From NCBI GenBank assembly GCA_964016885.1, contig OZ024742.1, forward strand, positions 63,922,001 to 63,986,000: a stretch of 64,000 bases of DNA, in the 5' to 3' direction. Source of the DNA: Eledone cirrhosa (taxonomy: Eukaryota). The notes under the pieces are model-generated. The model ran no database searches and was not told the DNA's origin. It worked only from the letters and a program-made list of their open reading frames with translations. How positions within the stretch are numbered: the first letter of the stretch is position 1; every line of letters begins with the position of its first letter. Positions 10,943-22,280 of the stretch are shown here, piece by piece. The position numbers were made by a program, and so were the translations under genes.

Positions 10943-12133
10943 TCTCCCTTCGTTTGTTGAAAAAAGAAGTGACATAGTCACTACTTTAAAATAATAGCGC
11001 AAGGTCTTCAAAATGTTTTTAATTAAGCATACAGTATATTGCCAAATATACTATACATATATTCATATATATATATATATATATATATATATGTATGTAT
11101 GTGTGTGTGTGTGTGTGTGTGTGTGTGTGTGTGTGTGTGTGTGTGTGTGTGTGCATGTGTGTGTATTATAAAGAGTCGGGATCCCGACGGCTGAGCTCTT
11201 GCCGTTTCAACAGCTAGTTGCAGACTATCGAATACCCTGGTGAGGTACGATCAAACCAGTTTCAAACTGAATCCATCCTGATTTATATATATATATATAT
11301 ATATATATATATATATATATATATATATATATATATATATATATATATATATATATATAATGTATAATAAACAATACAATATAATTACCTCATTACCAGA
11401 GGTTTCCCGAATAAGACAAATACAAAAAACGTCCTCATTCGTTCATCGGACAAGGCAATTTAAAACATAGTGAAATATTTGAAAAATCTCCTCAAGAAAA
11501 GCAAAAGTTTGACGGCCAAAAAAAATTATAAATGAAAGTAATGCAAGAGATATATAAAAAAAAAAAGGAAATATAGTTAGGGTATGTGTATAAATGTGTG
11601 TATATTCACTCACAAATGTACATATGTGTGTATGTACAAATGCATGTGTATAGTAAAAATGTGTGCGTAAGTACATATATGAGGGCAAGCATATCAGTGT
11701 ATGTGTGACCACAAATACGTATATAATATAAGTTGAAAAAGAAATTGTAAGATATTATAGTTAACATACATCCAGATTCAGGTATAAAATATATACACAT
11801 ACAAGTATGAAAGCACGCGTATAAACACACACACACGCGCGATCACATATATGCGAATGATATACAGGGAAGGGAGTGTATTAGTCAAAGGAGTGTCAGT
11901 CTGAGGCTCGATACATGTATAAAAATGTAGCAATATATGAGAAATATATATATATATATATATATATATATATATATATATATTGTTATACTTTGGGAGG
12001 GTCATGTTGCCAATAAGAAACACACGCACCAGTTGTTTTCACTTCAATTTATTATAATAAATTTATAAATTTAGGAATTTATAAATTTCTGGTTGGTTGG
12101 TTGGTTCCACAACCAGATAGTTGTTTATATATT

Positions 12134-12176
12134 GTCAAAGTTCTTTCGTCACACATTCTGTGACCTCTTCAGTGAC
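12134..12176 (-). ncRNA. Type I hammerhead in inverted pLTR
   Basis: Reverse complement of 13574-13616 (one substitution in stem III). Confidence 0.7.
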
Positions 12177-12381
12177 TGGGGATTCTTTTCTTTGTTTTTG
12201 TGCCTCTCCTTTGTTCTGTCCTACGCCATTTTGTGTGTTGTGTGCTCAGTCTGCGCATGCGCCACATCCGGGTGTCTGTGTGTGTTTATATTCGTTTATT
12301 TATTTGTTTATTTACATGTTACCGGTTGGTTGTTTGTTCTATGTGCGTGTGTGTTTTCATTTTGTCCTTAATTGTAAGTTG

Positions 12382-13372
12382 TAAACACCCCAACCATCGA
12401 TTACCTGTACTAGACACAGAGCTCTGGTTAAATACCATTAATAACAAAAAACAAATCCTCCATTCCCATTATGCCAAACCCATGACTTCCAAACATCTGA
12501 TCCACCGAAACTCAGCTGTTTCGGACCATACCAAAATAAACATACTGATTGCGGATTTGGTACGGGTGATGAGAAACGTGTCCCGCATGTGCAACCCCGA
12601 AGAACTAGAAAGACACATACAACACTTCATCCACCGTATGCAGTTCTCTGGTTACAATCAGAGAGATAGAATCAGAGTGTATAGAGGAGTCAGAACCAAA
12701 TGGGAAAAAATGGTAAATAATGACATAAATGGGACCTGCCCCTTGTATAGGAGCAAATTTTGGAATAGAATAGAAAGAACTATGAATAAGGCTAATAGAA
12801 TAAACTCATGGTATGATAGCAATAAATACCAGAGTGTAATGTTCATCGATACAACCCCTAGAGGTGAATTAGCTTACAGATTTAGAAGGGCCCTAGATAA
12901 ACATAAACTCAATATTAAGATAGTAGAAAGACCAGGTACCTCCGTAAAAACATTTATTAGCAAGACATACCCTTTTCAAAGACCCCACTGTATAGATAAG
13001 AAATGTATAACCTGTAAAATAAGCCCCCATATTAACTGTAAAACTAGAAATGTAGTATATAGCATAAGATGTACTGAAGGACAATGTAGAGACAAAAATA
13101 TAGTGTACATAGGTGAGACAGCTCGTAGTGTAGGGGAACGGATAAATGAACACTGGCGAGACCTTCAAGATAGTAAAGAATCATATGTACTCTACCAACA
13201 TGCTAAAATAGAACATAAGGGTAAATTAGAGAACATAGAAATAAAAATAGAATCTACACACAGAAAAGACGCAATGTTTAGACAAATCACAGAGGCAATA
13301 AACATAAAAGAATTACAACCAAAATTAAATAGAAAATATGAGTGTAACAGCAACATCACAACTTACAATTAA
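12382..13372 (+). CDS. PLE ORF C-terminal part: RT thumb, linker and GIY-YIG endonuclease (5'-truncated)
   Basis: LPVLDTELW, HYAKPM, NVVYSIRC...VYIGETARSVGERINEH, RQITEAINIKELQPKLN; ORF-track N-terminus 12200-12381 is inverted pLTR. Confidence 0.9.
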
Positions 13373-13573
13373 GGACAAAATGAAAACACACACGCACATA
13401 GAACAAACAACCAACCGGTAACATGTAAATAAACAAATAAATAAACGAATATAAACACACACAGACACCCGGATGTGGCGCATGCGCAGACTGAGAACAC
13501 AACACACACACAGAAACAAAATGGCGTAGGACAGAACAAAGGAGAGGCACAAAAACAAAGAAAAGAATCCCCA

Positions 13574-13616
13574 GTCACTGAAGAGGTCACAGAATGTGTG
13601 ACGAAAGATCTTTGAC
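13574..13616 (+). ncRNA. Type I hammerhead in pLTR
   Basis: GTCA CTGAAGA G GTCACA gaatg TGTGAC GAA AGATCT T TGAC. Confidence 0.8.
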
Positions 13617-14271
13617 AATATATAAACAACTATCTTGTTGTGGAACCAACCAACCAGAAATTTATAAATTCCTAAGTTTATAAATTTATTATAATAAATT
13701 GAATTGAAAGCAACTGGTGCGTGTGTTTCTTATTGGCAACATGGCCCTCCCAAAGTATAACAATATCGGTTTCATCACACGTTTTCAGAAAAAGAATCTT
13801 GCTAAACAAATTCAGAAACGATATATATATATATATATATATATATATATATATATATATATATATATTATGTGTAGAAGTAAACACAGTAAACCCGTGT
13901 CTAAAATTACGAGGGTAGATTACACCACAAATGTTATATATCATTCAACCTGAATCATATGGGATTTTACAAGATTTCTTACAAGATTTCTCATACATAC
14001 CATATCAATAACCATTTCATCTCCGAGTTTACTGTGTTTACTTCTACACATATTAATATTATAATTGTTTCTACTTTAAGCACAAGGCCAGCAATTACCC
14101 AGTGCATTACTGGTACTTTATTTTATCGACCCCGTAAGGATGAAAGGCAAAGTCAACCTATTATAATGCTCAGTATTTATACTTTGAGCTTGTTAATTGC
14201 AGGGTATCTATATGAGTTGTTAACTCTATATTTTATTTGTATATATATATATATATATATATATATATATC

Positions 14272-20483: not shown

Positions 20484-20757
20484 AGAATTAGTATATCTAC
20501 CAACATATATATACAGATGCATACCTATGCTAGCAAATATATAGGTTTTGTCTTAGTAACTTTGTGGTTCAATGCAAGGGGATGCAGAACAATTATATGA
20601 ATGACGTAAAATAAGAAAATTATAAAAATTAACTTACTTACTAAAATTTCACTCCAACTAATTAGTTTCTGAAAGGGAATAAACATGGTTTCCAAATGGA
20701 AAGCATGGAGAAGCCGTTTCGTCATCAGGAAGTCTGTTCTCAGCTAAGATACCTGGC
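20484..20757 (-). mobile_element. PLE-derived 3' fragment with hammerhead at 20651-20733
   Basis: ACUUC CUGAUGA...GAAACUAAUUAGUU GGAGU; related to 23700-23985. Confidence 0.7.
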
Positions 20758-20762
20758 GATAT

Positions 20763-21266
20763 ATGTATGTACGTGTACATACATACTTACATTTAAGTAA
20801 GTGCCGTACTAAGAGTGAGAAATGAAATTTCGTTTCATCTATTACAACTTATCGTTTTTGGTGCGCCTGGCCGACTGAACTCACTCGATATGCAAATTAG
20901 GCTGCTCAGCCGTTAATTTTCATAAGGAAAGTATATACTTTCGAACGTTCAACCATCTGGCAGAAGGGTATACGGTGCTGATGATAGCTAAGAAGCTTGA
21001 AACTAGTACATCGTTCCTGTGTCAGTGTTGAACAAAAAGGTGACGTGGTTGCCTTAACACCGTGCGGCATAAATCAGGCTGTCCGTTTGTTTACAAACGG
21101 ACAAAGCGGGCGTTATAATAAACGTCCGCTAAACTGATACGTACATATATATATGTGTACCTGTATGTATATATATATGTATGTACGTGTACATACATAC
21201 TTACATTTAAGTAAGTGCCGTACTAAGAGTGAGAAATGAAATTTCGTTTCATCTATTACAACTTAT
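20763..21266 (+). mobile_element. Retrozyme-like unit: 414-nt period with identical 90-bp terminal direct repeat
   Basis: 20763-20852 equals 21177-21266; internal hammerhead; no ORF. Confidence 0.7.
20972..21014 (+). ncRNA. Type I minimal hammerhead ribozyme
   Basis: ACGGTG CTGATGA T AGCT aaga AGCT T GAA ACTAGT A CATCGT. Confidence 0.85.
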
Positions 21267-21353
21267 ATATATATATATATATATATATATATATATATAT
21301 ATATATATATATATATATATATATATATATATATATATATATATATATATATA

Positions 21354-21824
21354 TACGATATTAAATAAATGGAAACTATATTTATAAAACCATATTTATT
21401 TCATTATATATATTTCAGGGATATCATATTAAAAATATGGTATGCCTTCATCAGACAAAATACAATATAAACAGTCTTATAAATAGATAGATTTGACATA
21501 CCTTACACTTCAACTTCCATTTAAAAAGTTGATTTGGTAGTGAAAAATGTTAGGGACAGTTATAGAGAAAAAAAAAACTTTTTAAATGGAAGTTGAAGTG
21601 TAAGGTATGTCAAATCTATCTTTTTATAAGACTGTTTATATTGTATTTTGTCTGATGAAAGCATACCATATTTTTAATATGATATCCCTGAAATATATAT
21701 AATGAAATAAATATAGTTCCCATTTATTTAATATCGTAAATATACTCCAAATACTTGTTGAGTGCTTTTATATCAGTTATAAATATTTACTCGTTGTAAC
21801 CCAACAATTTAAATAAAACTTTGC
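21354..21824 (+). mobile_element. Fold-back element (21354-21738) plus tail; hammerheads at 21397-21462 (-) and 21644-21709 (+)
   Basis: TATTTTGT CTGATGA...GAA ATATATAT A ATGAAATA; both ends in (TA)n. Confidence 0.8.
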
Positions 21825-21900
21825 ATATATATATATATATATATATATATATATATATATATATATATATATATATATATATATATATATATATATATAT

Positions 21901-22280
21901 ATCGTTTCTGAATTTGTTTAGCAACATTCTTTATCTAAAAATGTGTGTTGAAACCGATATTGTTATGCTTTGGGAGGGTCATGTTGCCAATAAGAAACAC
22001 ACGCACCAGTTGCTTTCACTCCAATTTATTATAAAAAATTGTTTCAAAGGAGAGGCACAAAAACAAAGAAAAGAATCCCCAGTCACCGAAGAGGTCACAG
22101 AATGTGTGACGAAAGAACTTTGACAATATATGAACAACCGTCCGGTTATGGAACCAACCAACCAACCGGAAATTTATAAATTCTTAAATTTATAAATTTA
22201 ATTTATAATAAATTGGAGTGAAAGCAACTGGTGCGTGTGTTTCTTATTGGCAACATGACCCTCCCAAAGCATAACAATAT
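21901..22280. mobile_element. ORF-less fold-back derivative of the 11982-13820 PLE pLTR; hammerhead variant at 22082-22124 (CCGAAGA)
   Basis: Highly similar to 13535-13820; inverted arm carries the tail. Confidence 0.88.

What the first reader, a model, noticed from the sequence alone, without database searches (positions are those of the whole stretch)
11982..22280. Two discrete 3' termini per family suggest twin priming at both nicks of a (TA)n target
In one PLE family the tail-less arm stops at the same internal AACAATAT site (11982, 22280, and approximately 56738), while the other arm runs to the tail end ...CAGAAACG (13820, 21901). At 11982-13820 the tailed arm is the long ORF-bearing one; at 21901-22280 it is the short one. 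Arm lengths therefore vary independently while the outer ends are fixed. Internal end points in other families are also TAT-like (10428, 23866, 25402, 28771). Inference: two cDNAs primed from opposite TA strands, one at the RNA end and one at an internal AU microhomology, then joined at their truncated 5' ends.
Basis: partly seen in the sequence, partly recalled or inferred. Interest (0 to 1): 0.72.

Follow-up and report, generated by a model that had tools for sequence, protein, structure and literature searches.

The report
One-tailed twin-primed Penelope insertions
These back-to-back copies of a very abundant Penelope-type jumping gene nearly always have one arm ending at a short site and the other at a site 60 bases further on, a known layout whose strict pairing suggests that both cut ends of a TA repeat likely start copying the same element RNA, each at its own internal start point.

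Summary
The family is a C-terminal GIY-YIG Penelope-like element (PLE) with 25,958 exact anchor matches. In a position-ordered sample, 115 of 117 arm anchors stop at or before the tail end: 59 at the inner AATAT site, 54 about 60 nt further. 79 of 82 scorable two-armed insertions pair one of each (p 2e-20 against at most 50%), as do 7 of 7 in each of two other families. Inner junctions vary and carry excess microhomology; both arms come from one source copy; simple fold-back fails in 39 of 79. One correction: the tail end is not the RNA end. Both sites are internal AAUAUCG motifs in the ORF start, and 423 copies read through. The layout and two start sites are published (PMC3846280, PMC8557442, PMC11167929); an obligate one-site-per-nick twin-priming model was not found in my searches. 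This scan noted the same rule before on other DNA, here and in other genomes. Known structure, useful mechanistic constraint.

The parts
11944..11983 (.). (TA)n flank, left of insertion 1
11980..12382 (-). tail-less arm of insertion 1, from the inner site (0) back to about -412
   Evidence: 94.9% to the other arm
12381..13826 (+). tailed arm of insertion 1 (about -1389 to +60); 2-nt overlap (GT) with the left arm
12381..13372 (+). 5'-truncated ORF: RT C-terminal part, C-x4-C-x2-C linker, GIY-YIG endonuclease with CCHH pattern
   Evidence: longer ORFs of the family in L061, L062, L064
13496..13521 (+). approximate hot spot of inner breakpoints (-270 to -245), likely the RNA 5' end / transcription start in the pLTR (inferred)
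   Evidence: 17 of 158 inner ends, 0 and 0 in the two flanking 26-nt bins, bins chosen after seeing the data
13574..13616 (+). minimal hammerhead-like motif (CTGAAGA, helix II, GAAA); activity untested
   Evidence: sequence, fold and 73 motif matches in sampled loci; Rfam gave no hammerhead hit
13741..13820 (+). start of the next ORF inside the pLTR (ATG at 13741); inner site AATAT 13762-13766; tail 13767-13820; outer site follows
   Evidence: translation of the read-through copy L061, MALPKYNNIGF...KQIQKRNIVSL
13821..13868 (.). (TA)n flank, right of insertion 1; the junction reads CGATATAT where read-through copies read CGAAATAT
21897..22034 (-). tailed arm of insertion 2 (+60 to -77)
22045..22280 (+). 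tail-less arm of insertion 2 (-233 to 0), after a 10-nt unmatched stretch
56743..56969 (-). old single tail-less arm between TA-rich flanks, no partner seen
9759..10530 (.). family B insertion: tail-less arm 9759-10019, tailed arm 10161-10530 (about 100-nt tail); not sampled genome-wide
23591..23966 (.). family C insertion: tail-less left arm, right arm with about 100-nt tail from 23868; not sampled genome-wide
25087..25496 (.). family D insertion: palindromic arms, about 95-nt tail on the right only
28630..31612 (.). family E insertion: long tailed arm (about 143-nt tail, RT ORF 29773-31524 on the minus strand), short tail-less arm 31474-31612

Best explanation
These are single insertions of an endonuclease-bearing Penelope-like retroelement in which both 3' ends of a cut (TA)n target likely prime reverse transcription on element RNA from one source copy, one at the inner AAUAU site and one at the outer site 60 nt downstream, and the two truncated cDNAs are then likely joined through short microhomology or filler. 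Shown in sequence: two fixed ends, one of each per insertion, outward-facing sense orientation, variable joints, shared source haplotype, both sites internal to the transcript. Inferred: staggered nicks on both strands; an asymmetric (probably dimeric) ribonucleoprotein that hands one site to each primer; a few bases of primer-template pairing at each site; probably one RNA molecule, with the outer polymerase either stalling in the tail or displacing the inner cDNA, which would let the arms overlap; run-off at a pLTR transcription start near -260.
For: Ends are bimodal: of 117 anchors in L071-L139, 59 end at 0 or -2, 54 at +59 to +61, 1 at +53, 1 reads through and 2 (+45) are oddities, one a related family. 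79 of 82 two-armed insertions are tailed/tail-less, 2 tailed/tailed, 1 tail-less/tail-less (hand tally; binomial p 1.9e-20). Families D and E: 7 of 7 each; a family A RT and the family E ORF show no significant BLASTP match (best E 0.086). Junctions: of 74 strand switches, 46 without insert; 30 of these 46 have 2 or more shared bases against 15% expected (p 2e-14; 24 of 40 without the palindrome region). Same source: 4 of 364 diagnostic sites differ between partner arms against 1,926 of 3,962 between insertions; rare shared variants 1.6 per kb within 20 pairs against 0.03 per kb in 1,032 control pairs. One RNA: 14 of 79 tailed arms stop inside the tail (+4, +4, +31 to +33, +46 to +53), the L1-like non-overlapping case; very short arms are 11 of 77 on the tailed side against 1 of 63 on the tail-less side (Fisher p 0.012). 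Primer overwrite: 16 of the first 100 tail-TA junctions read CGATATATA, 0 of the first 100 read-through copies have that T. One insertion in a non-TA target (L181) has an 11-12-bp target duplication around the whole unit. In vitro, an anole PLE nicks and extends both strands, starts at two internal sites that bound the tail, and is predicted to be a dimer (PMC11167929).
Against: Frangieh et al. saw no difference in start site between top and bottom strand and no primer-template homology, so the asymmetry has no biochemical support yet. One RNA versus two RNAs of one locus cannot be told apart here, and later gene conversion between arms could also give shared variants; shared rare variants show no A-to-G excess (3 of 26). 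Strand displacement is needed for the 65 of 79 pairs whose arms overlap and is untested. Three pairs break the rule. About 55 further arms in the samples had no visible partner (hand tally) and were not scored; several sit alone between TA runs (L071, L123, L126, L137). Target duplications are invisible in pure TA; the scan of 68 insertions gave one clear case and one or two possible ones. The CGATATATA spelling could also come from later slippage at the repeat edge. In D and E the outer site shares only 2-3 bases with TA. No RNA ends could be mapped.
Confidence: 0.68

Rival explanations
1. Dual priming on two RNA molecules: an asymmetric dimer holds two transcripts of the same active locus and uses the inner site on one and the outer site on the other.
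For: Explains overlapping arms of over 1 kb (L101, L105, L114, L142) with no strand displacement; gives shared haplotypes if one locus dominates in a germ cell; dual priming is a published idea for L1 (PMC2837659, passages).
Against: Does not by itself predict tailed arms stalling inside the tail and next to the inner site; many haplotypes coexist, yet no clear chimeric pair among 31 (at most 2 of 13 sites differ).
Confidence: 0.17
2. Self-priming or fold-back: one cDNA (or an antisense transcript, as Arkhipova et al. 2013 propose) folds back and copies itself, and the endonuclease resolves the hairpin leaving a tail on one side.
For: Would give identical arms and microhomology; about 6 of 79 joints sit on palindromes of the pLTR (-78, -93 to -108) and near-equal arms are in excess (16 against 6.5); it is the published model (PMC3846280 passages; PMC8557442 ascribes the tail to EN-mediated resolution).
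Against: Fold-back of a tailed cDNA requires the tail-less arm to lie within the tailed arm; it reaches more than 30 nt further 5' in 39 of 79 pairs, and 14 tailed arms share no sequence with the partner. A tail-less cDNA cannot template a tail. Most joints are asymmetric.
Confidence: 0.08
3. Amplification of ready-made palindromic masters, or two separate insertions into one TA run, or assembly artefact.
For: A 110-copy mini junction class exists; L186/L191 and L184a/b are duplicates with shared flanks; separate insertions do stack in TA runs (L119, L136).
Against: Joints differ among nearly all copies; no TA lies between arms in most pairs; separate events would not share haplotypes or pair one tail with one non-tail; arms differ by a median 1.4% and are asymmetric, unlike a read fold-back artefact.
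Confidence: 0.04

Closest known systems
Typical EN+ PLE insertion unit: inverted 5'-truncated pLTR plus a 30-40-bp tail on one end (Pen2a_Av, PMC3846280; Fig. 2 legend of PMC8557442; passages read)
   Same: Head-to-head arms, one-sided tail that extends the first codons of the ORF, palindromic joints, target duplication round the unit, TA-microsatellite targets, hammerhead-like motif, N-rich ORF linker.
   Different: Tails here are 60, about 95 and about 143 nt; the one-tail rule is counted (79 of 82) where the papers say 'optionally' or 'often'; those papers favour self-priming or EN resolution.
Poseidon_Ac in vitro (Frangieh et al. 2024, PMC11167929; parts 1-2 of 4 read, main text and part of methods)
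   Same: Two internal start sites just inside the ORF that bound the tail; both target strands nicked and extended; AT-rich targets; hammerhead cleavage not marking ends.
   Different: There the start site is an AC-rich stem-loop with no homology to the target and no strand difference; here both sites are AAUAUCG, match the TA primer, and are split one per arm. No stable fold was found over the sites here (z -0.34).
L1 twin priming (PMC2837659, PMC2912911; passages read)
   Same: Two primers from two nicks, opposed cDNAs joined by microhomology, one target duplication.
   Different: L1 uses the poly(A) end plus a variable internal site and gives non-overlapping arms with a deletion; here both sites are internal and fixed, the event is the family's commonest outcome among scorable copies, and most arms overlap.

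Membership tests
EN+ Penelope-like elements | Single ORF with RT and C-terminal GIY-YIG endonuclease | tested here: met
   ORFs of 743-1024 aa with YVDD and VVY...YIG motifs; RVT_1 E 3.5e-4 and GIY-YIG E 2.8e-4, both under Pfam cut-offs; 95 homologues, best a named Octopus vulgaris RT protein at 68%
EN+ Penelope-like elements | Partial tandem copies forming pLTRs that include the ORF start | tested here: met
   L061, L062, L068, L070, L079, L192 read from 3' UTR through the tail into the next ORF; unit 4,305 nt in L061
EN+ Penelope-like elements | Inverted 5'-truncated copy with a tail at one end | tested here: met
   79 of 82
EN+ Penelope-like elements | Hammerhead motif in the pLTR | tested here: inconclusive
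   Core and helices present; Rfam no hit; cleavage untested; no pile-up of ends at the predicted cut (4 ends in -160 to -148)
EN+ Penelope-like elements | RT phylogeny inside the PLE clade | not tested
   No named reference sequences at hand; no tree built
Neptune/Nematis clades | CX2-5CxxC linker before GIY-YIG and CCHH in the endonuclease | tested here: met
   CIDKKCITC, then C-x4-C inside the GIY-YIG core and H-x4-H; definition from PMC8557442
Neptune/Nematis clades | Placement by RT tree (Neptune versus Nematis) | not tested
   Called Neptune-like on motifs only
L1-type twin priming | First primer at the RNA 3' end | tested here: not met
   Both sites internal; 423 read-through copies
L1-type twin priming | Arms do not overlap (inversion with deletion) | tested here: not met
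   Only 14 of 79 pairs are non-overlapping
L1-type twin priming | Microhomology at the inversion joint | tested here: met
   30 of 46 insert-free joints with 2 or more bases, 15% expected
L1-type twin priming | One target duplication round both arms | tested here: inconclusive
   One clear case (L181) among 68 scanned; hidden in TA elsewhere
L1-type twin priming | Both cDNAs from one RNA molecule | tested here: inconclusive
   Same source copy shown; one molecule not separable from two of one locus or from conversion

The most novel reading that the evidence does not exclude
Twin priming is the normal PLE insertion route: a dimeric RT-endonuclease binds one RNA, aligns each TA 3' overhang on its own short internal AUAU site in the manner of telomerase primer alignment, and the outer polymerase displaces the inner cDNA, so one RNA is copied twice and the two cDNAs replace second-strand synthesis. 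This would explain the tail, the inverted pLTR and the many palindromes of TA-rich genomes in one step.
Probability: 0.35. Interest if true: 0.75.

Novelty: new variant of a known kind. Interest (0 to 1): 0.48.

Why it matters
How PLEs make their inverted repeats and one-sided tails is named as an open question in PMC8557442, and the in vitro study leaves the steps after priming unvalidated. A counted rule of one site per arm, one source per insertion and stalls inside the tail turns this into direct predictions for an existing in vitro system. The family alone has well over ten thousand insertions in this genome, most scorable ones hairpin-forming. The structure itself is ordinary for the class.

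Tried and rejected
RNA evidence: only assembled contigs were served, one RNA run with a 0.07 share, so no starts or ends. Rfam on 9500-32000: only sub-threshold miRNA-like hairpin hits, no hammerhead. A stem-loop over the two sites: not better than shuffles. Hammerhead cut as RNA 5' end: no pile-up. Telomerase-like TA extension on one side: TA runs at tailed and tail-less ends do not differ (medians 26 and 22 nt, p 0.12); no empty orthologous sites were available. RNA-editing signature in shared variants: none. Apparent tail-less/tail-less neighbours in the match lists (L182, L184, L199) proved to be separate one-tailed insertions; L187 stayed unresolved. The first 30 loci were picked by a tail-bearing query and are left out of all counts, as are L061-L070 from pair tallies (five of them enter) and the hand-picked L199. 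Two rows belong to a related family; both fall in the insert class and do not enter the 46. Papers on the octopus repeat annotation (PMC13282606) and retrozymes (10.64898/2026.07.22.740005) do not treat this in the passages found. Searches that found no paper proposing twin or dual priming for PLEs; subscription papers and all supplements were not seen.
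Full report
Setting. The window is G000:C3:63922001-63986000 in a 3.0-Gb genome, rich in (TA)n and inverted repeats. The closest named protein to the family's ORF is from Octopus vulgaris at 68%, so the host is probably a cephalopod (inference). Coordinates below are relative to the last base of the inner AACAATAT site (0; window 13766); the outer site ends at +60.

Observation. Insertion 1 is (TA)n, a reverse arm from 0 to -412, a 2-base overlap, a sense arm from -1389 to +60, (TA)n. 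Insertion 2 is (TA)n, a reverse arm from +60 to -77, 10 unmatched bases, a sense arm from -233 to 0, (TA)n. The copy at 56743 is old and single. Four other families in the window show the same layout with tails of about 95 to 143 nt.

The element. [quoted passage not shown] The ORF starts inside the terminal repeat. The inner site is codons AAC AAT ATC, the outer site CGA AAT ATC, 60 nt on; both read AATATCG. Copies that run through the outer site into the ORF number 423 by exact match, and L192 holds more than one and a half units on one arm. So neither end is the end of the transcript. Families D and E also read through, into a 5' UTR and ORF, and their arms also face outward in sense. A hammerhead-like motif lies at -192 to -150.

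Counts. A tail-independent 32-mer has 25,958 exact matches: 12,099 go into TA at the inner site, 11,144 go on into the tail, the other 2,715 differ in the next five bases and were not examined. I fetched all of the first 100 matches on C1 (69 stretches, L071-L139) and 59 stretches (L140-L198) covering the first 60 of 82 places listed for 20.5-44 Mb. Of 117 anchors in the first set, 59 end at 0 or -2 and 54 at +59 to +61. Scoring by hand, with duplicates counted once and arms as short as 8-15 nt accepted when they abut TA, 82 insertions show both outer ends: 79 tailed/tail-less, 2 tailed/tailed (L136a, L197), 1 tail-less/tail-less (L174, ending at -6). Independent choice allows at most 50% mixed pairs; p 1.9e-20. 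About 55 arms had no visible partner and are not in this count. In 30 loci each of families D (7,088 anchors) and E (2,087), 7 of 7 and 7 of 7 clear pairs are mixed, and two less clean E cases agree.

Inner joints. Of 74 strand switches found by script, 37 overlap, 9 are blunt, 28 have inserts. Among the 46 without insert, 30 share 2 or more bases against 15% for shuffled ends. Joints are mostly unique. Hot spots exist: pLTR palindromes at -78 and -93 to -108; a mini junction (-33 to -36 with +46 to +49) in 110 copies genome-wide; and -245 to -270, with 17 of 158 ends and none in the flanking bins. The last sits on CAAAATGGCG/AAGATGGCG just after GCGCATGCGC; from memory these resemble YY1 and NRF1 promoter motifs, so run-off at a transcription start is the likely cause (untested).

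One source. In 31 pairs overlapping by 150 nt or more, arms differ by a median 1.4% against 5.8% between insertions, and by 4 of 364 subfamily-diagnostic sites against 48.6%. Rare shared variants are about 54-fold enriched within pairs, present in 10 of 20. This shows one source copy, or later conversion; it does not prove one molecule.

Mechanism. Each arm reads, from the TA inward, as antisense cDNA attached to a TA 3' end, so both arms fit target-primed reverse transcription on sense RNA. L181, in a non-TA target, carries an 11-12-bp duplication round both arms, the geometry expected if both nicks prime. Fold-back of a tailed cDNA is excluded for the 39 of 79 pairs in which the tail-less arm reaches further 5' (24 the other way, 16 near equal). 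Fourteen tailed arms stop inside the tail, two of them four bases from the inner site, and very short arms are commoner on the tailed side (11 of 77 against 1 of 63), as expected if the outer polymerase meets an obstacle on the same RNA (inference). The overlapping majority then needs strand displacement, or two RNAs (rival). At the outer junction 16 of 100 copies have T where 0 of 100 read-through copies do (12 of the latter lie in one tandem array), which suggests the TA primer is aligned across the site; slippage is an alternative. Only 2 of 22 ATAT per unit are used, so the protein or RNA context, not pairing alone, likely picks the sites.

Literature. The layout is described as typical in PMC3846280 and PMC8557442 (passages); the first proposes self-priming on an antisense template, the second EN-mediated resolution. 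PMC11167929 (parts 1-2 of 4) shows both strands nicked and extended and two internal start sites bounding the tail, with no strand difference and no homology to the target. Twin and dual priming are L1 models (PMC2837659, PMC2912911; passages). Seven searches found no paper joining these for PLEs; subscription papers and supplements were not seen. Unreviewed notes of this scan report the same rule in this genome and in others; they are not independent proof.

Verdict. A real feature of a known element class. The added value is the counted asymmetry and its testable predictions. Interest 0.48.

Noticed in passing
L092:8807-8968, L149:1930-2071, L165:2760-2900, L173:19-183, L238: A related family shares only about -29 to +45 with family A, ends at 0 or +41 to +45, and also pairs one of each (L173); it hints that the minimal mobilisation signal is this short stretch.
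   Followed up: partly
L061:6782-7500, L062, L067: Long Asn/His/Thr-rich repeat linker of variable length inside the ORF, like the N-rich inserts described for Adineta Penelopes (PMC3846280).
   Followed up: no
L068:1544-8314: Tailed/tailed insertion whose flanks are inverted copies of each other, apart from the ordered samples; origin unexplained.
   Followed up: no
G000:C1:132947045-132947579: At least 12 tandem copies, period 46, of the outer-site region of family A: a minisatellite born from the tail.
   Followed up: no
L125, L139: Short non-TA words repeated on both flanks, possible long target duplications inside interrupted TA runs.
   Followed up: partly
window 14272-17582 (minus strand): Near-complete non-LTR element with endonuclease and RT (RVT_1 E 4e-28), between TA runs; looks RTE-like from memory.
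   Followed up: partly
window 5701-7484: Pogo/Tigger-type transposase (CENP-B_N, HTH_Tnp_Tc5, DDE_1) split by a SINE-like repeat at 6873-7055 that recurs at least seven times in the window.
   Followed up: partly
window 26130-28100: PIF1-like helicase fragments, probably a Helitron remnant (recalled resemblance, not searched).
   Followed up: no
window 10570-11066, 21355-21825, 23233-23310, 25520-25600, 25632-26150: Further TA-flanked palindromes of other repeat families, not classified.
   Followed up: no
P0083: An Octopus vulgaris protein annotated as dynein regulatory complex subunit 6-like matches 20% of the ORF at 77% identity, probably a PLE fragment in a gene model.
   Followed up: no
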